NCBI GenBank assembly: GCA_018058245.1
Contig: JAGPCC010000002.1
Location: forward strand, 2,643 to 66,642
DNA length: 64,000 bases
Direction: 5' to 3'
Source: Verrucomicrobiales bacterium
Lineage (GTDB): Bacteria > Verrucomicrobiota > Verrucomicrobiia > Verrucomicrobiales > DEV007
Position numbers and translations under genes: made by a program. This document shows positions 2,922-39,283 of this stretch, one piece after another. How positions within the stretch are numbered: the first letter of the stretch is position 1; each line of letters starts with the position of its first letter. The notes beneath the pieces were generated by a model. That model had not been told where the DNA came from, made no database searches, and worked only from the letters and a program-made list of their open reading frames with translations.

Positions 2922-4088
2922 GTGAATCAAGAACAACCAAACAACCCGTTCGCCGCATCGACCTCGCGGCGAGCGAAGACCGACACCGCAATACGAATCG
3001 GGTTTTGTGCGATCACCTACTTTATCGTCGTGTTAGCCATTGCAGTGTTTGCGGACATTACCATTAAAGGAGCCCCAGTGGTGTTTCCAAAAATATTCGG
3101 TCAAGACGGCCCTTTTGTGAACACCGATCTATTCACAAAAGACCCGGAAACGTTGGTCGTTTTCGAAGATGTGGAGGCCGATAAAATCACGATGGGATTC
3201 GGCGAGTTCTCCAACTACAAAACCGAAAACCCCAAAGCCGTCATCAACAACGAAAAGACCTTTGCATTCTCGGCTGGCGGTGTTCGCGGCCCGATTCTGG
3301 GAACTATCTTTTTGGTGACGATATGCATCGTTGTCGCATTGTTCATCGGCATCGCTACCGCCATCTATCTAAATGAATACAGTGGTAAGGGAAAAACGGT
3401 AGATGGTATCCGACTCGCCATCCTTAATCTGGCGGGAGTTCCATCGATCGTTTTCGGACTGTTCGGCTTGATGTTCTTTTGCTTTTTCGTGCCTGTCATC
3501 ACACAAACACCGATTGATCGACCAGGCTTCGAGATCTCCCCGATCCCCCTGCCATTTGGGTATTATATCAGCTTCCAAGGCTGGGGAACCTGTATGTTGG
3601 CGGGAGGTTTCACCCTCGCCGCGATGATTCTACCAGTCATCATCACCGCCACCGAAGAATCACTGAAGGCTGTACCCATGGGTTTCCGAGAAGCGTCATT
3701 GGCGTTGGGGGCAACCAAGTGGCAAACGATTCAAAAATCAGTTTTGCCATACGCCTATCCTGGCATACTAACCGCATCAGTGCTCGGCATCACGCGAGCG
3801 GCTGGCGAGACTGCACCGATCATGTTTACCGCCGCCGTGGCACTACGTGACGAGCTACCTTGGGAGGGACTCGATAATACAAGTCTTGGTGCCGTATTCG
3901 ATTTCTTCGGCCAGTCCGTTCAGGCGCTGCCCTATCATATCTACACTGTTGCATCCAAGATACCTCAAACCAAGTACACTGAACCGATGCAGTACGCTGC
4001 AGTATTCATTTTCATGATACTGGTCATGGCCCTCGCCGGACTTTCGGTCTGGTTGCGGGTTCGTGCCCGTGCCAAGTTGAAATGGTAA
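2922..4088 (+). CDS. pstA: Phosphate ABC transporter permease PstA
   Basis: NLAGVPSIVFGLFG, EASLALGATKWQTI (EAA loop) and RAAGETAPI motifs; operon position. Confidence 0.95.
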   Translation: MNQEQPNNPFAASTSRRAKTDTAIRIGFCAITYFIVVLAIAVFADITIKGAPVVFPKIFGQDGPFVNTDLFTKDPETLVVFEDVEADKITMGFGEFSNYKTENPKAVINNEKTFAFSAGGVRGPILGTIFLVTICIVVALFIGIATAIYLNEYSGKGKTVDGIRLAILNLAGVPSIVFGLFGLMFFCFFVPVITQTPIDRPGFEISPIPLPFGYYISFQGWGTCMLAGGFTLAAMILPVIITATEESLKAVPMGFREASLALGATKWQTIQKSVLPYAYPGILTASVLGITRAAGETAPIMFTAAVALRDELPWEGLDNTSLGAVFDFFGQSVQALPYHIYTVASKIPQTKYTEPMQYAAVFIFMILVMALAGLSVWLRVRARAKLKW

Positions 4089-4124
4089 TACGCTGAAAAC
4101 CGAAAATAGAGCATCTGGCTGTAT

Positions 4125-4976
4125 ATGATGACGACAACTCAACCCAAATTCTATATGGAAAACGCAACACCAGCGACTACCTTAGGACCCACTCCAAGCA
4201 CCCATAGCCCAACGCCGACCACGATCATTGAGGTCGATGACGTCAATTTCAGCTACGACAGCAAGGTCGATGTGCTGCGCGACATTTCGCTCCCCATTTA
4301 CGAGCAGCAGGTAACAGCCTTCATCGGACCATCCGGTTGCGGAAAGTCGACCCTGCTACGTTGCTTTAACCGGATGAACGACCTCATCCCCGGCGCGGGC
4401 CTACGAAAGGGCCGGATCAGCATTCTCAACACCGACATTCACTCCAGCGGAGTCGACGTCATCGAACTGCGCAAGCATGTTGGAATGGTGTTTCAGAAAT
4501 CCAATCCATTTCCAAAAAGCATCTACGAAAATCTCGCCTACGGACTCCGCATTGCAGGGGAAAAACGCCCTGAGGTTCTCGATCAGATCATCGAGGAAAG
4601 TCTCCGCAGTTCCGCCTTATGGGATGAGGTAAAAGACCGCCTTCATAGCAGCGCTCTTGGCCTCTCTGGTGGCCAGCAACAAAGGTTATGTATCGCTCGT
4701 GCGATCGCGGTGAAGCCCCGCATCCTATTGATGGATGAACCATGTTCCGCACTCGATCCGATCGCCACCGCAAAGGTTGAAGAACTAATCATTCAACTTA
4801 AGAAAGACTACACGATTGTAATCGTTACCCATAATATGCAACAAGCTACCCGAGTGTCTGACCGCACCGCATTCTTCTACCTCGGCGAACTGATCGAAAT
4901 TGATGCAACTCCAGTCTTGTTCAGCAATCCTTCCCGAACTGAAACGGAGGACTATATTAGTGGTCGGTTCGGCTGA
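4125..4976 (+). CDS. pstB: Phosphate ABC transporter ATP-binding protein
   Basis: GPSGCGKST Walker [15 protein letters not shown] signature, [22 protein letters not shown] end. Confidence 0.97.
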
Positions 4977-25962: not shown

Positions 25963-26240
25963 GGTTCTTGGTTCTTGGTTCTTGGTTCTTGGTTCTTGGT
26001 TCTTGGTTCTTAATCCTTAATCTTAATCCTTAATCTTAATCCTTAATCTTAATCCTTAATCCTTAATCCTTAATCCTTAATCCTTAATCCTTAATCCTTA
26101 ATCCTTAATCCAACGCTCCTCCGATTAAGATTAAGATTAAGATTAAGATTAAGATTACGAACATTCCCCCTCTTTCACACCACCCCCTCAATCCCTCAAT
26201 CCCTCAATCCCTCAATCCCTCAATCCCTCAATCCCTCAAT
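25963..26240. repeat. Compound short tandem repeat block downstream of purB
   Basis: (GGTTCTT)x7 at 25963-26011; about 14.7 units of AATCCTT/AATCTT at 26012-26111; (GATTAA)x5 plus GATTAC at 26123-26158; (CCCTCAAT)x7 at 26185-26240. Confidence 0.95.
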
Positions 26241-26249
26241 CACCCCTCC

Positions 26250-28691: not shown

Positions 28692-30266
28692 TCAGGCGGT
28701 AGCGCCGTTCTCGCCTAACACTGACTTGAAGATTGATTCCAACTCCCGGATTTCCTCGTCAGTCAGTAGCTCAAATTCCGGAAGTTCTCGTTTTCGCTTG
28801 GAAAGTTCACCGCCATTCTGGTGGCAAAGTTTTATGAAAAGGTCAGCGATGCGGTCAGGAAGCTCGACGACCTCCCGCATCTCCCGGCGTATCTCATCAT
28901 AGGCTGTCAAGAAGCGCAGTTCGGTGGGCAGTTCGGTCTCAATCGTCTCTCGAATGAACTCGATTGTGATTCGCGTCGCCTCGGTCAGGTCAATATAGCG
29001 ATAGAAATCGGCAGTGTCATTGGTGACGGTCATCCTCATCCGTTCATCGAGGGTGTATTCGACCCGCTCCATAAGAGGTTTGGAAAAGCTCTCGAGGGCT
29101 TGGTCGTATTCGCGTGGACGGTTGAGAATCACTGCGGAAATGGGCAGGATGATGCCTTCGGGTCCGAAATGATTGTGAGCAAGGACATGATGGAGAAGGA
29201 AGCGGTGGATGCGACCGTTCCCGTCGCTGAAGGGGTGGAGAAAGTTGAAGGCGAAGGAGATGACTGCGGCGGAGACCAAAGTGGAGACACCAGTGGGAGT
29301 TCGGAAAGTGAGATTCTTTTCAAGCAGCTTCACCTTTAGTATCCGATCTACGAGCAGATTCGCCATCTTCAGGAATTCCTTCATCAATTGATCGAGATCC
29401 TCCGGTTTCGGTCCCGCAAAATGGACTCGTTCGACATCGGGCGCTAGTGTCTCACCAACATAGATTTGTTCCCCGATCTCACTTCTCCACCCATCGTTCG
29501 CGAACCGAGGATCTACGATGGCCTGCTGCAATTCCACGAGTGCTTCCTTGTTTAGAAATCTTCTGTGCCACGCCTGTTCCAGAAGCCCGATGAACACCTC
29601 GGCACGCTTCTGACTCGGGGTTTCTCGTTCGATTTCATAACTGCTCTTGCTCTCCTTCACGTAAAGGTATCGAACTGCGCGTTCGAAGACTTCTGGCGAG
29701 TATTCCCCAATGATCGAAGTGCAACGGTCTTTCATCTCAGACTCGTCCCATTTTGGCAGCCCATTCCACCGCACGACTGGAGAGAAGTGGCCAGTACCGA
29801 GTATATTGGCGTTAATCCTCTGACGTTTCTGTTTCCGGACCGGTCCTGTCACGTAAATTTTTGGATCAAGCAAATCTACGTAATTGCCCTGTTTCAAATC
29901 GGGGAGATCTAACCGCTCTCGAGTGAAGCCTTCATAAAGATTCCAGAGAATTCGCGCATACCGTCCAGTAGGTCTCGTGCGCACGTAGGCAGTCAGTTCT
30001 ACGGGATCGATTTCCCTTACCAAAAGCTTCCGAAGCAGTTCCAGATGAAGACCCTCGCGACGGAGAGCGAACTCCAGCTGCTCAAACACATCTGCGCCGG
30101 GTCCCTGAGCGGCGGGCAAATATTCGATGACCCGCCCATTCCGCTCGATAATGCGGCGCGCTCCTTTTGAAAGCGAATGACTCTCCTTCCAGTGAGGCAT
30201 CGTGACGAGCCCGAATTGCTCAGCGAGCCAAGCGTATCCGAGAGGTTTACTTTCGGGGATGTCCAT
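28692..30266 (-). CDS. Fic-family protein (probable AMP/NMP transferase)
   Basis: Canonical HPFSDGNGRIHR motif; SSYEIE resembles the class II autoinhibitory helix. Confidence 0.92.
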   Translation of the reverse strand: MDIPESKPLGYAWLAEQFGLVTMPHWKESHSLSKGARRIIERNGRVIEYLPAAQGPGADVFEQLEFALRREGLHLELLRKLLVREIDPVELTAYVRTRPTGRYARILWNLYEGFTRERLDLPDLKQGNYVDLLDPKIYVTGPVRKQKRQRINANILGTGHFSPVVRWNGLPKWDESEMKDRCTSIIGEYSPEVFERAVRYLYVKESKSSYEIERETPSQKRAEVFIGLLEQAWHRRFLNKEALVELQQAIVDPRFANDGWRSEIGEQIYVGETLAPDVERVHFAGPKPEDLDQLMKEFLKMANLLVDRILKVKLLEKNLTFRTPTGVSTLVSAAVISFAFNFLHPFSDGNGRIHRFLLHHVLAHNHFGPEGIILPISAVILNRPREYDQALESFSKPLMERVEYTLDERMRMTVTNDTADFYRYIDLTEATRITIEFIRETIETELPTELRFLTAYDEIRREMREVVELPDRIADLFIKLCHQNGGELSKRKRELPEFELLTDEEIRELESIFKSVLGENGATA

Positions 30267-30442
30267 GCGGATTTGATTATATTTCTGCGGAAAGGATTAC
30301 AATCCCGGCTTTTTCTGCGAAATTTATTATTTTCATCCGCTAGGCCTGGTTACACTGCCGATTCTGTTACATTTGTCCGAAAACAATTACAATTCAATGA
30401 TTTCGTACGACTTCGGTTACAAATAACTCAATTCACAATTTA

Positions 30443-30459
30443 TCGTAGCGTCGCTACGA
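30443..30459. promoter_or_regulatory. Perfect 17-bp palindrome, operator-like
   Basis: TCGTAGCG-T-CGCTACGA, 6 bp upstream of a -35 hexamer. Confidence 0.55.
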
Positions 30460-30465
30460 AAAAAG

Positions 30466-30494
30466 TTGACGCCTCCGCTCCTCCTGCTTAGTGT
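30466..30494 (+). promoter_or_regulatory. Sigma70-like promoter for the R-M operon
   Basis: TTGACG (30466-30471), 17 bp spacer, TAGTGT (30489-30494). Confidence 0.55.
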
Positions 30495-30505
30495 CCCTTC
30501 ATCCC

Positions 30506-30588
30506 GAAAACGAACGCACCCGCCAAAAAGGCGGGTGCGGGTGCCGGGTTCCCAATAAAGGCGGTCCAGCAAACCGAGTCGGGCGACT
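30506..30588 (-). ncRNA. Candidate ~83-nt cis-antisense small RNA
   Basis: Bounded by a near-consensus minus-strand promoter and a perfect 10-bp GC hairpin (30515-30539) followed by TTCGTTTT on the minus strand; no ORF. Confidence 0.5.
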
Positions 30589-30594
30589 ACGGCG

Positions 30595-30624
30595 ATTCTA
30601 GGCGCTTTTGGAGGGAACTGTCAA
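30595..30624 (-). promoter_or_regulatory. Near-consensus sigma70 promoter (minus strand)
   Basis: TTGACA (30624-30619), 18 bp spacer, TAGAAT (30600-30595). Confidence 0.65.
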
Positions 30625-30684
30625 GGAGAGCTGCGAGTGTAGCTGTCTTCCGGTACCCGCAGCGTTCGTTGGGCGCTAAAAAAA

Positions 30685-30951
30685 ATGGATAAAATCCGCG
30701 GAACCAAAAGCAGGGGGATCGACGCGAATACGTTCGAAATGAGCGTATTATGGCAAGATCCCATCAATACCCACACCTACAACTCCACCGAGAAGATCCA
30801 ATTCTCGGGTGACACAAAACCCGATCCGAGTCCGGTGGGCGGCGTTTACATCACGAACGCACTCCTTCTTAGTGTCGGAGACCGTGTTCATTGCAACATT
30901 CAGGCCCGTGACGTTTACGGGCGTGTCGTCGCCGATGTTTGGAAGTACTGA
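30685..30951 (+). pseudogene. Thermonuclease (SNase)-like fragment
   Basis: C-terminal half LLLSVGDRVHC...ARDVYGRVVADVW resembles the SNase D-x-YGR motif; the N-terminal catalytic DGD region and the C-terminal helices are absent. Confidence 0.45.
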
Positions 30952-30957
30952 ACAACC

Positions 30958-32022
30958 ATGACTACTCCCCGCCGCCCGCTGCATCGCGTTGCCGAGGTTC
31001 ACTCCGGTCTTCCAGTGAGTGCCTCTGAACCGGAGACATCGGGCGGCGGGGCACTGGTCCTTGCCTTAATGCCGGCGTCGCTGAAATTCGATGCTGAGTT
31101 TTCGCCGGGGTCGGAAACTCTAGTCAAAGTCCTTGCCGCTTCGGCACCGGATTCCCGATTCCAGGTTCAGTCCGGGGATATCCTCGTTACCGCCAAGTCG
31201 ACGGAAGCGAGCCTTCGCTGCGGAATCATTGCAGCGGATTGGGACCAGCGTCCTTCCCCGGTCTTTGCGTCAAGCTTGATTCGGATTCGAGTGGCAACGC
31301 CCGAGACGATTCTTCCGCGCTTTCTCCACGCCTGGCTGAGCAGCTCGAGCGGGAAAATTTCATTAAAGGCCGTATCCCAATCCGCGACCTCGCAAATGAA
31401 CCTCACGACCGCCGCGATCTCCCAACTTCAAGTTCCAGTTCCACCGATGGAGGAGCAACGGAGGATTGTGGAGTTTCTCGACGCGGCAGTCACCGCACAT
31501 GATTCCGCGATTGCCGCTGCTGAGACCCGGCTTGCTCTCGCGCACGAAATTGCATTTAACCCAACGCTTCCGATGCCCTTTCACGATTCCAAATCTCGAT
31601 CACCACGCCTTCTCATACAGACGGCCCGCCCGGAAACCACAATCCTGACAACCGAACGTGGCGATGGCACGTCGATGCCGAACTCGTCACTTTGGCCGGA
31701 AGTCAGAGAACTGGTCGAGGCGCTTCCCGATCGCCCCTTGGCGAGGCTCTTTGATCCGTATGCCAGCGAAACCGCTTACTTGGATCGAACCGAACTCGCC
31801 CGACTTATCGCCAAAGAACTGCGAACGCTGCTTGCCATTTGCGCAGCCCACCCGCACGATCTGATTCGGACCTACGAGAAAGAGGCGATGATCGACGTCG
31901 ATTACACGCTGGCTTCCCGCCTCGGAATCTACATGGGCGAACGCTCCGTTGATTACTTTCTGATGGAACTCGAAACCCTTCCCCCTGAAACCCAGGAACA
32001 AGTCCACGTTCACCTTACCTGA
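30958..32022 (+). CDS. hsdS: Half-size HsdS-like specificity subunit (one TRD) with ~150-aa unknown C-terminal extension
   Basis: GDILV, LIRIR, FLHAWLSS, Q-x-NLT...ISQLQVPVPPMEEQRRIV conserved HsdS helix; only one TRD. Confidence 0.72.
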   Translation: MTTPRRPLHRVAEVHSGLPVSASEPETSGGGALVLALMPASLKFDAEFSPGSETLVKVLAASAPDSRFQVQSGDILVTAKSTEASLRCGIIAADWDQRPSPVFASSLIRIRVATPETILPRFLHAWLSSSSGKISLKAVSQSATSQMNLTTAAISQLQVPVPPMEEQRRIVEFLDAAVTAHDSAIAAAETRLALAHEIAFNPTLPMPFHDSKSRSPRLLIQTARPETTILTTERGDGTSMPNSSLWPEVRELVEALPDRPLARLFDPYASETAYLDRTELARLIAKELRTLLAICAAHPHDLIRTYEKEAMIDVDYTLASRLGIYMGERSVDYFLMELETLPPETQEQVHVHLT

Positions 32023-32039: not shown

Positions 32040-33809
32040 ATGCTCACCCGCGAAGAACTCAACCGCCAGCTCTGGGGCGCCGCCGACATCCTGCGCGGTG
32101 CCGTCGATGCCGCCGATTTCAAGAATCACATCCTCTCCCTGCTTTTCCTGAAGCGGCTTTCCGACGTCTTCTTCGAACGGCGCGAGGAAATCCTGCGGGA
32201 ATGGCGGGAGGCGGGAAAGTCGCCCGCCGAAGCTGAAGCCATTGCCGATGATCCCGACGAATACGACGACGGGGCCTACTTCCTGCCGGTCGAATCGCGC
32301 TGGCCCTCGCTGATGAAGGTCGCCGAAAACCGCGCCGAGGCGATCGACAAGGCCCTCGTCGCCATCGAAGACACGAACTCGGCCTACCTCAGCGGCGTCC
32401 TGGCCGGAGTCCGCTTCAACGACGAGCGCCGCTTCGGCGACGCGGCGACGATGGACGGTCTGATGCAGCGTCTCCTCGCGCACTTCGCGAGGATTCCGCT
32501 CGGGAACCGCGATCTCCTCGAGCCCGACGTGCTCGGGAATGCCTACGAGTTTCTCATCGAGCGATTTGCGGAGACGGCAGGGAAAAAGGGCGGCGAGTTT
32601 TACACCCCGCGCGGAGTTGTACGCCTCCTCGTGGAGCTGCTTGATCCCCGCGAAGGCATGCGGATCAACGATCCCACGAGCGGATCCGGCGGTATGTTGA
32701 TCGAGTGCGGGCATCACATCGAGGAGCGCGGGGGGAATCCGCGCAATCTCACCCTGACCGGTCAGGAAAAAAACATCGGCACCTGGGCGATCTGCCGTCT
32801 GAACATGCTCCTCCACGGCTTCCCCGACGCCGACATCCGCGCCGGCGATACGATCCGATCACCGAAGTTCACCACTCACGGGTCACTCGATGCCTTCGAC
32901 CGCGTCATCGCCAATCCGCCCTTTTCCTTGAAGGACTGGGGTGCCGATTCAGCAAGCTCCGATCCTTACCATCGTTTCGAGCGTGGCATCCCACCGAAGA
33001 CGAAGGGCGACATGGCCTTCCTGCTCCACATGATCGAGTCCGTCCGCGAGCGTCGCGGCATGGCCGGCGTGGTTCTACCCCATGGAGTCCTCTTCCGCGG
33101 TGGGTCGGAGGCGAAGATACGCGAATCATTGCTGAAGGACGACCTGATCGAGGCCATCATCGGTCTCCCCGCCTCCCTCTTCTTCGGCACCGGGATTCCC
33201 GCCGCCCTTGTCATCTGCAATTGGAACAAAGCCCCTGAGCGGAAGGGGCGCGTCCTCATCGTTGATGCCTCGACCGATGGCCTTTACCGCGAGGGAAAAT
33301 CCCGCAACTTCCTCGATCCCGTCGATGTCCTGAGGATCGCCGCGATCTTTCACGGATGGGCCGACCCCGGTCGCACCGTGGAAGCGGTCGAGTCCATCGC
33401 CACGACGTGGAAGGCGGCACTCGCGCGACACCGCGACCGCCAGATCGAGCGCGCAGGTGGACCGGCGTCGGAACTTGCCCCTCGAATTCACGAGGACTTT
33501 GACACGCGCCTCGCCGAAATCGAACGGGGCTCCGCGTCGCTCCGCGACTGGTTCGGCGCGACACACCCCGCTCCGGGGGGAGGCACGCGATCCAGTCTTG
33601 AAAAACACGCCGCCGTTGTCGCGGTGAAGGAGGTGCTCAAGGAACACAAGGGCAACCTTAACATCACCCGCCATGTTGATGCGATGGATCCACCGCCGAG
33701 GTTGGATGTGGTGGCGGAGCTGGCGAAACTGCGGGAGTTGGAGCTGAAGCGCGATGAGGCGGAGAAGAAGATGAATGAATTGTTGAAGGAGTTTGGGTAT
33801 GAAAACTAA
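32040..33809 (+). CDS. hsdM: Type I R-M methyltransferase subunit (m6A)
   Basis: LWGAADILRG, GEFYTPRGV, DPTSGSGGML, ANPPFS, VLPHGVLFRGG, NLNITRHVD. Confidence 0.96.
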   Translation: MLTREELNRQLWGAADILRGAVDAADFKNHILSLLFLKRLSDVFFERREEILREWREAGKSPAEAEAIADDPDEYDDGAYFLPVESRWPSLMKVAENRAEAIDKALVAIEDTNSAYLSGVLAGVRFNDERRFGDAATMDGLMQRLLAHFARIPLGNRDLLEPDVLGNAYEFLIERFAETAGKKGGEFYTPRGVVRLLVELLDPREGMRINDPTSGSGGMLIECGHHIEERGGNPRNLTLTGQEKNIGTWAICRLNMLLHGFPDADIRAGDTIRSPKFTTHGSLDAFDRVIANPPFSLKDWGADSASSDPYHRFERGIPPKTKGDMAFLLHMIESVRERRGMAGVVLPHGVLFRGGSEAKIRESLLKDDLIEAIIGLPASLFFGTGIPAALVICNWNKAPERKGRVLIVDASTDGLYREGKSRNFLDPVDVLRIAAIFHGWADPGRTVEAVESIATTWKAALARHRDRQIERAGGPASELAPRIHEDFDTRLAEIERGSASLRDWFGATHPAPGGGTRSSLEKHAAVVAVKEVLKEHKGNLNITRHVDAMDPPPRLDVVAELAKLRELELKRDEAEKKMNELLKEFGYEN

Positions 33810-34380
33810 AGAAAACCAAGTCCAACGCGTTGGCTGGTCCGAGCACTATCTTGGCGAACTTTTCTCCGAGAGAAGGGAACCCGGTATCTCGGGACTGCCA
33901 ATTCTCTCGGTCACAATGAACTCCGGGGTGGTCGCACGCTCCGACTTGGGTAGACGCATCGAATCCGAATTGGCAGATGAATCGCACGCCTTAGTCCGGA
34001 AAAATGACATCGCGTATAATATGATGCGGATGTGGCAGGGCGTCTCCGGCTTAGCGCCATGCGATGGACTCGTTAGCCCAGCCTACGTCGTTCTCAACCC
34101 GAGTGATAGAATAGACCCACTATTTGCGAGCTATCTCTTCAAGATGCCTGAAACGATTCGTCTCTTTCATCGATTTTCGCAGGGTCTGACAGACGACCGG
34201 CTTCGTCTATATTTCGATCAATTCTCTGCAATACGCGTCAATATTCCGGACTCGGTTGAAACTCAGCGGAACATCGCTTCACTCATTTCGACGTTCGACG
34301 AGCGAATTTCACAATCTGAAGCAACTACAGATTTTCTGCGATTCGCGAAGCATGCGCTTTGCCAAGATCTCCTCTCATGA
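33799..34380 (+). CDS. hsdS: Second half-size HsdS specificity subunit (one TRD)
   Basis: W-x4-LGEL start, NDIAYN, VSPAYVVL, QRNIAS...KHALCQDLL end; overlaps the hsdM stop; 193 aa. Confidence 0.85.
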   Translation: MKTKENQVQRVGWSEHYLGELFSERREPGISGLPILSVTMNSGVVARSDLGRRIESELADESHALVRKNDIAYNMMRMWQGVSGLAPCDGLVSPAYVVLNPSDRIDPLFASYLFKMPETIRLFHRFSQGLTDDRLRLYFDQFSAIRVNIPDSVETQRNIASLISTFDERISQSEATTDFLRFAKHALCQDLLS

Positions 34381-35591
34381 GCGAACCCTCCGGAAACGTT
34401 ATCATCCTTGGTGCGGGCGCAAGCTTCAACGCCGGGATTCCGTTAATGTCGAACTTCATTGACACGATGTGGAATCTCGCACGGACAGGGCGCGGTCCGG
34501 AGGGAGCAATCACGCCCGCCGACCGAAAAATTCTAGAGAATGCCCTTGGCGTTCGTGAGGATTTGGATGGCTATCATGGCCGAGCCTCGTTCGACATGTG
34601 GAACATCGAGGATCTCCTCTCGATTCTATCGTTCAACGCCATGGCGGGTGGAAAGAAGGAAAAGAACCGCCTCGAAGCGATCACTAAGGGAATTGCGAAG
34701 ACGATTGAAATCACATGCAACGTCAAGCACGACGGAAACATTGAAACCGATCCAGAGAAGGGCAGGAACTATCTCTATGAGGAGTTTTGGAATTCGCTTC
34801 TTAAATGGTCCCGGGATACAAAGCTTCCAGTCCCACCTATTGTCACGTTCAATTACGACCTTGTTTTGGAACGCTCTTTGATGCGCGTACTCACGGGGTT
34901 TCGTTACTTCGACGAGCGGAATAAAGGATTTCCATGGAGATCGGTTCTGATCCGGTACGGGGCGTCTGCATTTGATGAGGTCGTATTTGACGCAAAATTC
35001 GTTCGGTGGGAGACAAGGGGCGAGCGATACGAATCAAACTGGGGGCTAAAGCTCAGTGAGTCCACTACGTCACCCGTTGATGATGACGATTACGTGCTTC
35101 GAATCAACCTCTGCAAACTCCATGGCTCTCTAAATTTTCCTCGTTCGGAGAAGGACAAAACTGATAAACCAGCCGGACATCGCCTTGTGACGGCCCTTGA
35201 AGATCCTTTGATTCTTCCTCCGGTCTTCAACAAAGCGACAAATAGTCTCGGGGGATCAACTTGGGCCGAAGCATTGCGCTGCATCCGCGCCTGTAAGAAT
35301 CTGATCATCTGCGGATACAGTCTGCCCGCGACAGACATCTACATGCAGTATTTCCTAAAGTCGGCGCTCGGTCCGAATCAAGATTTGAATCGGATGTTTA
35401 TTTACGACCGCTCGCTCTTCATCCCCGAAGAGTCAGCAGCCGCCGAATCACTTAAGAACCGATATTCCGCAATTTTCTCTCCGGGTATTCAACATCGAAT
35501 CCATTTCGATCCGCCACGACACAACGGAGGAACCTTCGAAGACCTGGTATACATCCTTCAAAAATACCCAGATCAAATTCTCTTCGGCTGA
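34377..35591 (+). CDS. SIR2-like domain protein (putative NADase effector)
   Basis: ILGAGAS, TFNYD, KLHGS, ILPP-x-x-NK and CGYS motifs; ATGA overlap with the hsdS stop. Confidence 0.85.
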   Translation: MSEPSGNVIILGAGASFNAGIPLMSNFIDTMWNLARTGRGPEGAITPADRKILENALGVREDLDGYHGRASFDMWNIEDLLSILSFNAMAGGKKEKNRLEAITKGIAKTIEITCNVKHDGNIETDPEKGRNYLYEEFWNSLLKWSRDTKLPVPPIVTFNYDLVLERSLMRVLTGFRYFDERNKGFPWRSVLIRYGASAFDEVVFDAKFVRWETRGERYESNWGLKLSESTTSPVDDDDYVLRINLCKLHGSLNFPRSEKDKTDKPAGHRLVTALEDPLILPPVFNKATNSLGGSTWAEALRCIRACKNLIICGYSLPATDIYMQYFLKSALGPNQDLNRMFIYDRSLFIPEESAAAESLKNRYSAIFSPGIQHRIHFDPPRHNGGTFEDLVYILQKYPDQILFG

Positions 35592-38602: not shown

Positions 38603-39283
38603 ATGGCAGGAACATTCCATCGGGACGCCGTCCGATTCGGCAACACGGAGATCGCGTATAAGATCCGCCGGTCACGCGAGCGAAAAACACTCGGGATCAC
38701 GGTTTGTGGTCCATGGGTCGAGGTAGCCGCGCCGGCAGGGATGCGTGCTTCGGCGATACGCCCATTGGTCTTGAAAAAGGGTGCCTGGATTCTCCAGAAG
38801 CTCGATCTTGCGAGACGTCACGCTCCGATTTATCCACAGGTGCTCAAGGCAGGTGACAGCATCCGTTTCTTTGGGAGACAGTATTTGCTGAGGATACACA
38901 AGGTGGAGGGAAAACGCTCGTGGCTTGAACAAGCGGGAGGCAGGTTCCATTTATATCTTGCCGAGCCTTCGAACCCTGATGTCGGGCATCAGCTATTTAA
39001 GCGATGGTTCCGCGAGCAGCTTCAACTTGCGCTGCCTCAATGGATCGAAGAGTTCTCGAAGAAGTTGGGTATAGAGCCTCCGCCGTTTGATGTGAGAGAG
39101 CTGGGTAGCCGGTGGGGGAGTTGCAGTGCGTCGCGTAAAATTCGTTTCCACTGGCTTCTCACCACCCAAACACCTGAGTTCGCTCGCCACGTCGTCGCTC
39201 ACGAGCTATGTCACCTTATCGACCCAACACACTCGGCGGCTTTCTTACAGCTGTTGAAGCGAATTAACCCCAGCGGATTTTAG
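38603..39283 (+). CDS. YgjP/SprT-like M48 zinc metallopeptidase domain protein
   Basis: RKTLGI, RWGSCS, HELCH...HSAAF; a common companion of hsdR. Confidence 0.88.
   Translation: MAGTFHRDAVRFGNTEIAYKIRRSRERKTLGITVCGPWVEVAAPAGMRASAIRPLVLKKGAWILQKLDLARRHAPIYPQVLKAGDSIRFFGRQYLLRIHKVEGKRSWLEQAGGRFHLYLAEPSNPDVGHQLFKRWFREQLQLALPQWIEEFSKKLGIEPPPFDVRELGSRWGSCSASRKIRFHWLLTTQTPEFARHVVAHELCHLIDPTHSAAFLQLLKRINPSGF

What the first reader, a model, noticed from the sequence alone, without database searches (positions are those of the whole stretch)
30443..30624. Convergent promoters define a cis-antisense small RNA over the leader of the defence operon
Seen: a plus-strand promoter TTGACG-17-TAGTGT (30466-30494), preceded by a perfect palindrome TCGTAGCG-T-CGCTACGA, faces a minus-strand promoter TTGACA-18-TAGAAT (30624-30595). 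The minus transcript would run about 83 nt through small hairpins into a perfect 10-bp GC stem (30515-30539) with a U-rich tail. That tail exists only on the minus strand, so the plus mRNA should read through. Established: SymE/SymR and phage C4/CI RNAs use short antisense RNAs to silence toxic genes. Inference: the RNA tunes or delays expression of the nuclease/R-M/SIR2 operon, or is the orphan antitoxin of a lost toxin. It could instead be an attenuated leader for the fic gene.
Basis: partly seen in the sequence, partly recalled or inferred. Interest (0 to 1): 0.75.

Follow-up and report, generated by a model that had tools for sequence, protein, structure and literature searches.

The report
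Structured leader RNA of a defence operon
The hairpin and facing promoters are real, but they lie in a previously undescribed, conserved, about 184-base folded RNA that heads the messenger of a restriction-modification defence operon; the proposed short antisense RNA stays possible but unproven.

Summary
It runs from the plus promoter to the ATG of an 88-aa ORF that opens a type I R-M/SIR2 operon.

Eight homologous loci, all Verrucomicrobiales-like where the taxon is known, carry the same leader.
- Fold: 91.7% of cells pair, and 26 of 61 pairs show double (compensatory) changes. No shuffle of 500 reaches these values.
- Strand: G.U cells outnumber A.C cells 39 to 12, which points to the plus strand.
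- Plus promoter: its -35 hexamer sits at the same place in 8/8 loci.
- RNA evidence: twelve metatranscriptome contigs never extend left of 30501 (the best-covered one starts there). All cross the minus promoter, and they end between 30700 and 30956.

The minus promoter (TTGACA-18-TAGAAT) is nevertheless conserved as TTGAC(A/G)-17/18-TAnnnT in 7/8 loci. An antisense RNA therefore remains plausible. It is untested, because only unstranded contigs were available.

There is no Rfam match. How the leader acts is inferred, not shown; cis control of operon expression is the most likely role.

The parts
30443..30459 (.). Palindrome TCGTAGCG-T-CGCTACGA, 6 nt upstream of the -35 of the plus promoter. 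It is a candidate operator.
   Evidence: I5. The half-sites GTAGC/GCTAC are kept in L030, L037, L004, L005 and L055, with variants in L056 and L038. They are also kept upstream of fic in L002 and L003, which lack the RNA. No binding protein was identified.
30466..30494 (+). Plus promoter P+ (TTGACG-17-TAGTGT).
   Evidence: A -35 of T[TG]GAC[AG] sits at the same place in 8/8 loci. The -10 elements are TAGAAT, TAGGGT, TAAGCT, TAAGCA, TATTCC, CAATCC and TAGAAT. Its predicted +1 is the start of the X25 RNA contig.
30501..30684 (+). Structured 5' leader RNA (about 184 nt) of the small-ORF/type I R-M/SIR2 operon. Helices: P1a 30503-06/30670-73; P1b 30510-17/30662-69; P2 30518-24/30530-36; P3 30537-47/30650-60; P4a 30548-53/30613-18; P4b 30557-65/30601-09; P4c 30574-80/30585-92; P5 30625-34/30639-48.
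   Evidence: Covariance model R1 finds homologues in 7 other loci at 22-220 bits. Across them, 91.7% of cells pair, 26/61 pairs have double changes, and 0/500 shuffles reach this. G.U cells outnumber A.C cells 39 to 12. Twelve RNA contigs cover it.
30515..30539 (+). It is helix P2 of the leader; in isolation it can extend to 10 bp.
   Evidence: L040 shows a compensatory C-G to G-C change. The loop sequence is free (AAAAA, GGAAA, ACGAA, AAGG).
30620..30625 (+). Unpaired junction GUCAAG between P4 and P5, invariant in 8/8 leaders. On the minus strand it supplies the -35 TTGAC.
   Evidence: (alignment A10).
30595..30624 (-). Minus promoter P- (TTGACA-18-TAGAAT), nested inside the leader.
   Evidence: scores it 11/12. 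TTGAC(A/G)-17/18-TAnnnT is present in 7/8 loci and absent at the homologous place in L040.
30505..30588 (-). Predicted antisense RNA of about 83 nt from P- to the P2 complement plus U-run. This is hypothetical.
   Evidence: It rests on motifs only. A GUUUU run follows the hairpin in 6/8 loci and is weak in L038 and L055. There is no strand-specific RNA evidence.
30685..30951 (+). 88-aa ORF, the first gene of the operon. It is an orphan, all-beta protein.
   Evidence: The third-codon-position substitution pattern starts at the ATG. Seven homologues exist, all directly after the leader. It has no Pfam, PADLOC or PDB match.

Best explanation
SHOWN.
- The interval holds the promoter and the first two thirds of a conserved, highly structured plus-strand leader RNA (30501-30684).
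- The leader is transcribed from TTGACG-17-TAGTGT, with +1 at A30501. It continues into an 88-aa ORF followed by hsdS, hsdM, a half hsdS, a SIR2-like gene, hsdR and ygjP.
- The fold is a multi-helix junction. P1 closes the 5' end against the bases just before the start codon. P3 and the P4 domain are long-range helices. P5 is a hairpin with a GAGK loop. The junction GUCAAG never varies.
- The plus RNA is made, and its 5' structured part is well represented in wastewater metatranscriptomes.

INFERRED.
- The leader acts in cis on the defence operon. Only 2 nt are free at its 5' end, and the compact fold should protect the messenger's 5' end.
- The invariant unpaired bases suggest that it binds a factor: a protein such as the operon's own small protein or the neighbouring Fic, or a small molecule. 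That factor would set how much operon messenger is made or translated.
- The start codon has no Shine-Dalgarno sequence and is predicted to be open in all eight leaders. Control is therefore probably not simple masking of the ribosome site.
- A conserved antisense promoter sits in unpaired parts of the fold and faces P+. If it fires, it would add a brake by colliding polymerases, or by an 83-nt RNA that pairs with and unfolds the first half of the leader.
For: Gene content of the operon.

Homologous loci: L030, L037, L038/L039, L040/L041, L055, L056 and L057. In all of them the element sits directly before the small ORF of a type I R-M operon.

Covariance model hits: 220, 219, 95, 60, 54, 43 and 22.5 bits.

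Pair counts on 8 sequences:
- 91.7% of cells are paired, against 79.8% in shuffles.
- 26 of 61 pairs have changes on both sides, against 11.8 in shuffles; 0/500 shuffles reach this.
- Slid controls give 36-47% paired and at most 10 such pairs.
- The 5-sequence version agrees.

Strand: 39 G.U cells against 12 A.C cells. Plus-strand MFE is -97.1 kcal/mol (z = -5.3) against -83.4 (z = -3.6) for the minus strand.

Examples read directly from alignments A3 and A4:
- AGCUGC/GUAGCU becomes CGCUGC/GCAGCG and ACCGC/GCGGU.
- The P3 3' strand varies as CCGGUACCCGC, CCGGCGCCCGC and CCGGCAUCCGC against a constant 5' strand.

Promoter: the -35 is conserved in position in 8/8 loci.

RNA:
- Twelve contigs come from 12 runs, but two pairs of runs look like duplicate deposits. 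Left ends lie at 30501-30551 and never further left. Right ends lie at 30700-30956.
- In three runs this is the only real contig in 20 kb.
- A DNA run from the same sample as X25 covers most of 29900-31232 at a fairly even depth of about 3-4, with short gaps.

The distance from the transcript start to the AUG is 177-185 nt in all loci, and the AUG region is predicted to be open.
Against: - There are only 8 distinct sequences, three of them close relatives. The alignment used for counting was fitted to the model, which favours the structure.
- The RNA evidence consists of unstranded assembled contigs at low depth (2-8x). Direction is inferred from promoter position and the covariation strand, not observed.
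- No expression platform was found: no plus-strand terminator and no masking of the start codon. The mode of control is a guess.
- In the deepest run (X31) the leader contig is no deeper than neighbouring mRNA contigs.
- The two most conserved unpaired motifs coincide with the -35 and -10 of the minus promoter. Part of the conservation may therefore serve the antisense promoter rather than the sense fold.
Confidence: 0.72

Rival explanations
1. P- drives an approximately 83-nt cis-antisense RNA (30588 to about 30505) that ends at the hairpin. This RNA, or convergent transcription itself, silences or delays the R-M/SIR2 operon. It can coexist with the structured sense leader.
For: - P- matches 11/12. 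I estimate, without a tool, that a match this good arises on one strand of 184 nt only about once in a thousand by chance.
- TTGAC(A/G)-17/18-TAnnnT is kept in 7/8 loci, although the spacer sequence differs between lineages. The conserved positions are exactly T1, A2 and T6 of a -10 element.
- The hairpin plus a GUUUU run is present on the minus strand in 6/8 loci.
- Among close relatives, the 100 nt at 30502-30601 are 95-100% identical while the flanks are about 70% identical.
Against: - No strand-specific transcript evidence exists, and no RNA contig is limited to 30505-30588.
- The hairpin, the TTGAC motif and the TA..T motif are all accounted for as parts of a covarying sense fold.
- The U-tail is poor in L038 and L055, and the scan calls no terminator in L038.
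- L040 has no -10 at the homologous place.
- The RNA would not touch the start codon, which lies 97 nt away.
- Over all 8 sequences the 5' strands are only slightly more conserved than the 3' strands (51 against 62 non-majority cells).
Confidence: 0.35
2. The 30501 to about 30711 RNA is chiefly a stand-alone, abundant non-coding RNA (a 5'UTR-derived small RNA). It works in trans, or as a partner of the neighbouring Fic protein or the small beta protein, rather than as a cis regulator.
For: - Six of twelve contigs end at 30700-30711.
- In three runs it is the only transcript assembled in 20 kb.
- A fic gene lies divergently next to the module in every locus long enough to show it. One of these (L040) is an unrelated Fic type.
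Against: - The other six contigs run on into the ORF, as far as 30956.
- There is no plus-strand terminator.
- The element is always a fixed 177-185 nt ahead of the same small ORF. That is the signature of a leader.
- The same fic family occurs widely without the RNA.
Confidence: 0.2
3. The hairpin is only a terminator or insulator. It would protect fic from transcription coming from the right, or be part of an attenuated leader for fic. The conservation of the block would then reflect recent transfer.
For: - fic lies downstream of the hairpin on the minus strand.
- In L004 an operon on the fic strand ends before the block.
Against: - L004 is a copy broken by an IS630-family insertion at CTAG, with an unrelated right flank.
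- Long-range covariation links the hairpin's flanks to 30601-30673.
- fic loci without the RNA keep their own upstream repeats and palindrome.
- Divergent leaders (L038, L040) show that the element is old, not recently transferred.
Confidence: 0.05
4. It is a DNA-level element: an attachment site or island boundary at CTAG (30598-30601), or a miniature inverted-repeat element. The inverted symmetry of 30509-30563 against 30603-30670 would suggest this.
For: - Homology with L004 stops exactly at CTAG.
- Several imperfect inverted repeats are present.
Against: - The L004 break is an IS630-family element with terminal inverted repeats and TA flanks. L030, L037, L055, L056, L057 and L038 continue through it.
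- There is no second copy in the window. There are no copies elsewhere in the genome, metagenome or viral collections beyond this locus type.
- G.U asymmetry is an RNA signature, not a DNA one.
Confidence: 0.03

Closest known systems
SymE/SymR of E. coli (type I toxin-antitoxin; PMC1891008)
   Same: A short antisense RNA promoter is nested inside the sense transcript of a gene that sits beside restriction-modification genes. SymE-family genes are reported next to R-M systems in that paper.
   Different: SymR's promoter lies inside the symE ORF, and the RNA covers the 5' end of symE. Here the predicted antisense RNA lies wholly in the 5' UTR, 97 nt before the ATG. There is no Rfam SymR match. 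The small ORF has no SymE or any other Pfam match. The antisense RNA itself is unproven.
hok/sok-type messengers (from my own knowledge)
   Same: The messenger is highly folded, with its 5' end paired to a distant downstream segment. An antisense promoter in the leader points backwards.
   Different: There is no small hydrophobic toxin. What follows is a soluble 88-aa beta protein and a full type I R-M operon. No sequence or Rfam relation exists. The fold-back here closes just before the start codon without covering it.
EcoRI antisense RNAs Rna0/Rna1 (PMC3141266) and other R-M regulation reviewed in PMC3874152
   Same: Reverse promoters inside an R-M transcription unit are proposed to tune restriction gene expression (titles and abstracts only).
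   Different: Those are in a type II system and lie inside the restriction gene. No conserved structured sense leader is involved. The papers my searches listed did not include a type I R-M operon with an RNA leader.
Orphan riboswitch-like or structured 5'-leader motifs found by comparative genomics (for example PMC8632094, PMC11109978)
   Same: It lies between promoter and start codon, forms a multi-helix junction supported by covariation, has invariant unpaired nucleotides, and its ligand is unknown.
   Different: It matches none of the 4227 Rfam 15 families. It has no recognisable expression platform. It heads a defence operon and carries a nested antisense promoter. It is known from only 8 sequences of one bacterial order.
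RptR-controlled type I R-M defence island of EPEC (PMC12255303)
   Same: A small first gene and a palindromic site by the promoter of a type I R-M island with an embedded extra defence gene.
   Different: RptR is a 79-aa helical repressor that binds TAGCTA. Here the first gene is an 88-aa all-beta protein, and the palindrome is TAGCG-T-CGCTA. No homology was shown. This is a lead only.

Membership tests
Known RNA families (Rfam 15, including C4 antisense RNA, SymR, 6S, riboswitches, ribozymes) | A covariance-model match at or near the family's gathering score | tested here: not met
   There are no hits at gathering score in the 64 kb. At E<=10 on 30100-31000 there are only four weak hits well below gathering score. 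Two of them (abiF 18.7 of 37 bits, P9 15.8 of 43) fall on the GC hairpin.
Structured cis-regulatory 5' leader (riboswitch-like) | Lies between the transcription start and the start codon on the same strand, at a conserved distance | tested here: met
   P+ is conserved in 8/8 loci. The RNA contig starts at 30501. The leader is 177-185 nt in all eight loci.
Structured cis-regulatory 5' leader (riboswitch-like) | Conserved secondary structure supported by compensatory changes | tested here: met
   91.7% of cells pair, 26/61 pairs have double changes, and 0/500 shuffles reach this; the slid controls are far lower. Caveats: only 8 sequences, and a model-fitted alignment.
Structured cis-regulatory 5' leader (riboswitch-like) | An expression platform (terminator or anti-terminator, or masking of the ribosome site) | tested here: not met
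   No plus-strand terminator-like site lies in the leader. The start region is predicted to be open in 8/8 leaders.
Structured cis-regulatory 5' leader (riboswitch-like) | A specific ligand or binding protein | not testable with these tools
   This needs in-line probing or pull-downs.
Cis-antisense small RNA / type I toxin-antitoxin (SymE-SymR type) | A promoter on the opposite strand inside the sense transcript | tested here: met
   This is motif evidence only. P- scores 11/12 in the window. TTGAC(A/G)-17/18-TAnnnT is present in 7/8 loci.
Cis-antisense small RNA / type I toxin-antitoxin (SymE-SymR type) | The antisense RNA is detectably made | not testable with these tools
   Only unstranded assembled contigs were on hand. 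None is confined to 30505-30588.
Cis-antisense small RNA / type I toxin-antitoxin (SymE-SymR type) | The antisense RNA overlaps the translation start of a toxin gene | tested here: not met
   The predicted RNA spans 30588-30505 and the ATG is at 30685. The small ORF has no SymE or other family match.
Intrinsic (rho-independent) terminator, minus strand | A GC-rich stem-loop followed at once by a U-run, conserved among homologues | tested here: inconclusive
   The window, L037 and L040 pass the scan. L038 does not. The tails are UUCGUUUU, UCGUUUU, UAUCCGUUUU, GCUGUUUC and GUGUUGGGUU. The stem itself is explained by the sense fold.
Sigma-70-type promoter (P+) | -35 and -10 hexamers 16-18 nt apart, with a transcript starting about 7 nt downstream | tested here: met
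   The window matches 8/12, below the scan's cut-off. Homologues match up to 11/12 (L040; L030 and L005 TTGACA-17-TAGAAT, read). The X25 contig starts at A30501, 7 nt after TAGTGT. The contig is unstranded.

The most novel reading that the evidence does not exclude
The leader is a new class of sensor RNA for a defence operon. Its multi-helix junction would bind a signal: a metabolite, the operon's small beta protein, or the neighbouring Fic enzyme. Together with a conserved nested antisense promoter, it would form a sense/antisense switch that decides when a Fic-linked type I R-M/SIR2 system is expressed, for example on arrival in a new host or during phage attack.
Probability: 0.25. Interest if true: 0.75.

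Novelty: new variant of a known kind. Interest (0 to 1): 0.55.

Why it matters
How type I restriction-modification operons and their embedded extra defence genes are kept in check at the RNA level is poorly known. The known controls are mostly proteins (C proteins, RptR, proteolysis of HsdR).

A conserved, folded leader RNA with a built-in antisense promoter ahead of such an operon would be a new regulatory device for a defence island. It is also a new candidate RNA family for covariance-model libraries.

For annotation, it shows that a "terminator-like" hairpin facing a strong promoter can instead be one helix of a larger sense-strand fold. The family is narrow (one bacterial order, eight sequences) and its mode of action is open, which limits its reach for now.

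Tried and rejected
- **Known families.** Rfam at gathering score and at E<=10, and a tRNA/tmRNA scan, gave nothing relevant.
- **6S RNA.** I considered it because the RNA is about 200 nt, abundant and closed by its ends. I rejected it because there is no Rfam hit and the fold is a branched junction, not a rod with a central bubble.
- **Boundary at CTAG.** Homology with L004 stops there, which suggested an attachment site, or a 100-nt small RNA gene used as an integration target. I rejected this because L004 carries an IS630-family insertion (DDE_3 transposase, inverted ends, TA flanks) with an unrelated right flank, while other loci continue through CTAG.
- **Type III toxin-antitoxin layout** (repeats before a toxin gene). 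I considered it because of the repeat array before fic and rejected it for the finding. The repeats also occur in fic loci that lack the RNA, and they lie after the hairpin, not before it.
- **Exact-word scans.** Scans of the genome, metagenome and viral collections with 20-mers and a gapped hairpin pattern returned only the same locus type or chance hits.
- **The 88-aa protein.**
  - There is no Pfam hit even at E<=10, no PADLOC hit and no PDB sequence hit.
  - The AlphaFold model (pLDDT 75, six strands) has no Foldseek PDB match with E<=0.001 (best 0.18).
- **Extra constraint on the 5' half.** I tested whether the 5' half carries extra constraint, as dual coding would predict. The effect is clear among close relatives but small over all eight sequences.

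Full report
**What is there.** The finding lies in the 418-bp gap between a 524-aa Fic-domain gene on the minus strand (28692-30266) and a plus-strand operon.
- The operon consists of an 88-aa ORF (30685-30951), an HsdS-like gene, HsdM, a half HsdS, a SIR2-like gene, HsdR and a YgjP-type metallopeptidase.
- Fic matches the PADLOC defence candidate PDC-S24 over its full length (E = 1e-158).
- Fic homologues place the window in Verrucomicrobiales from wastewater and sludge.
  - the palindrome at 30443-30459;
  - TTGACG-17-TAGTGT at 30466-30494;
  - TTGACA-18-TAGAAT at 30624..30595, which scores 11/12;
  - a perfect 10-bp GC hairpin at 30515-30539, with a U-rich tail on the minus strand only.

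**RNA evidence.** Thirteen runs, twelve of them labelled metatranscriptomes, hold most of the 31-mers of 30440-30700.
- I laid their assembled contigs on the window. Twelve contigs came from 12 runs, but two pairs of runs look like duplicate deposits.
- Left ends lie at 30501, 30512, 30512, 30517, 30519, 30519, 30520, 30525, 30525, 30526, 30544 and 30551. None lies further left.
- Right ends lie at 30700, 30700, 30702, 30710, 30711, 30711, 30772, 30772, 30786, 30790, 30822 and 30956.
- The deepest contig (X25, 7.9x) begins exactly at A30501, seven bases after TAGTGT.
- In three runs this is the only real contig in 20 kb. A DNA run from the same sample as X25 covers most of the region at a fairly even depth of about 3-4, with short gaps.
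- Every contig crosses the minus promoter, and none is confined to 30505-30588.
- The contigs carry no strand information. The pattern, a sharp left edge at the predicted plus start and a ragged right edge running into the ORF, is what a plus-strand messenger with a stable 5' part would give.

**Comparative evidence.**
- At first only L004 and L005 shared the region. A block at 30502-30601 was 95-100% identical while the flanks were about 70% identical, and homology with L004 stopped at CTAG. That break is an IS630-family insertion (DDE_3 transposase, inverted ends, TA flanks) with an unrelated right flank. L004 is therefore a disrupted copy.
- Looking up contigs that encode Fic homologues and homologues of the 88-aa ORF gave seven further loci with the same layout. 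In each, the element sits directly before the small ORF of a type I R-M operon. A fic gene lies divergently beside it wherever the contig is long enough.
- In L040 the fic gene is a different Fic type; only the HPFxDGNGR motif region aligns.

**Structure.**
- All eight leaders fold alone into the same architecture.
- A covariance model built from the three closest sequences finds the others end to end, at 95, 60, 54, 43 and 22.5 bits.
- On the 8-sequence alignment, 91.7% of cells pair, against 79.8 +/- 1.0% in shuffles. Twenty-six of 61 pairs have changes on both sides, against 11.8 +/- 2.2. No shuffle of 500 reaches any of the five measures. Sliding the 3' partners by 1-3 columns drops pairing to 36-47% and such pairs to 10 or fewer (the 5-sequence version is).
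- The alignment was fitted to the model, which favours the structure. Several changes can nevertheless be read straight from plain MAFFT alignments:
  - P5 varies as AGCUGC/GUAGCU, CGCUGC/GCAGCG and ACCGC/GCGGU;
  - P1b shows A-U, A-U changing to G-C, C-G in L038;
  - P2 shows C-G changing to G-C in L040.
- Window helices: P1a 30503-06/30670-73, P1b 30510-17/30662-69, P2 30518-24/30530-36, P3 30537-47/30650-60, P4a 30548-53/30613-18, P4b 30557-65/30601-09, P4c 30574-80/30585-92 and P5 30625-34/30639-48. The junction GUCAAG (30620-25) is invariant in 8/8, and the P5 loop is GAGK.

**Which strand.**
- Paired cells contain 39 G.U pairs and only 12 A.C pairs; an A.C pair would read as G.U on the other strand.
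- The plus strand folds better than the minus (-97.1 against -83.4 kcal/mol; z = -5.3 against -3.6).
- Most helices join 30503-30565 to 30601-30673, so they cannot belong to an 83-nt minus RNA.
- A -35 of T[TG]GAC[AG] sits at the same place upstream in 8/8 loci, with a -10 about 7 nt before the conserved 5' end.
- Together with the contig that starts at 30501, the element is a plus-strand leader.

**The antisense promoter.** It cannot be dismissed.
- TTGAC(A/G)-17/18-TAnnnT occurs on the minus strand in 7/8 leaders, although the spacer (the 3' strands of P4) differs in sequence between lineages. What is conserved in the -10 is T1, A2 and T6 (scans).
- L040 lacks it at the homologous place. A weak site exists elsewhere in that leader.
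- On the minus strand the P2 complement is followed by a GUUUU run in 6/8 leaders. The run is poor in L038 and L055.
- Both promoter hexamers fall in unpaired, conserved parts of the sense fold. I cannot separate "conserved as RNA" from "conserved as promoter".
- An antisense RNA would pair with the first 88 nt of the leader, but it would end 97 nt before the start codon.

**How it may work (inferred).**
- The leader leaves 2 nt free at the 5' end and closes on itself just before an A-rich start region that lacks a Shine-Dalgarno sequence. That region is predicted to be open in all eight leaders.
- There is no plus-strand terminator. Simple attenuation or masking of the ribosome site is therefore unlikely.
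- I favour a cis-acting leader that stabilises the 5' end and binds a factor through its invariant junction and loop bases. The nested antisense promoter would be a possible brake.
- A stand-alone RNA role is a weaker rival. Half of the contigs end at 30700-30711, but the rest continue.

**Comparison with what is known.**
- There is no Rfam family match, including C4 and SymR.
- SymE/SymR shares the idea of a nested antisense promoter next to R-M genes. It differs in position, in sequence and in the downstream protein.
- EcoRI antisense RNAs are intragenic and belong to a type II system.
- RptR is a helical repressor that binds TAGCTA. The palindrome here, TAGCG-T-CGCTA, is only a lead.
- The papers my literature searches listed did not include a structured leader for a type I R-M operon.

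**Verdict.** The real element is a new, narrowly distributed structured leader RNA of a defence operon, with a conserved but untested antisense promoter inside it.

Noticed in passing
window 30266-30430: An array of five to seven degenerate repeats of about 20-30 nt, each with (G/A)TTA(C/T)A followed by TCTGCGRAAA-like bases. It runs right up to the fic start codon. It is conserved upstream of the 520-aa fic family in all loci, with or without the leader RNA. These look like binding sites or stacked promoter-like elements for fic.
   Followed up: partly
window 25963-26241: Four back-to-back perfect or near-perfect microsatellite arrays lie in one intergenic gap: (GGTTCTT)x7, (CTTAATC)x15, (GATTAA)x6 and (CCCTCAAT)x7. 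Short, high-depth metatranscriptome contigs map here, but they fit more than one place.
   Followed up: partly
window 28692-30266 (and L040:564-1700): The 524-aa Fic protein matches the PADLOC candidate defence gene PDC-S24 end to end (E = 1e-158). A fic gene lies divergently next to the leader/R-M module in every long enough locus, and in L040 it is an unrelated Fic type (Fic_N + Fic + HTH). This hints at a functional link between Fic and the R-M module.
   Followed up: partly
window 34359-35591 and 38603-39283: A SIR2-like gene is embedded between the half hsdS and hsdR, in the position that PrrC-type genes hold in other type I systems. A YgjP-type metallopeptidase follows hsdR.
   Followed up: no
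L004 about 3192-4356: An IS630-family element is inserted at the CTAG inside the leader (window equivalent 30598-30601). The DNA beyond it is unrelated, which suggests an IS-mediated rearrangement that destroyed this copy. Its plus promoter has also decayed (CCGACG...TAGTGC).
   Followed up: yes
window 30727-30749: An inverted repeat, AATACGTTC/GAGCGTATT, lies inside the 88-aa ORF and brackets the second in-frame ATG (30739). Its core ACGTTC-N5-GAACGT is kept in all homologues, with one compensatory change in L030. It could be RNA structure or simply codon conservation (NTFxMxV).
   Followed up: partly
window 30685-30951: The 88-aa first gene belongs to a tiny orphan family: seven clusters, all in this operon position. 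It is predicted to be all-beta and has no match in Pfam, PADLOC or the PDB.
   Followed up: yes
window 30958-32022 and 33793-34380: Specificity is split. A 354-aa HsdS-like gene with one clear target-recognition-domain hit lies before hsdM, and a 195-aa half HsdS lies after it. Homologous loci carry different sets of small genes at these positions.
   Followed up: no
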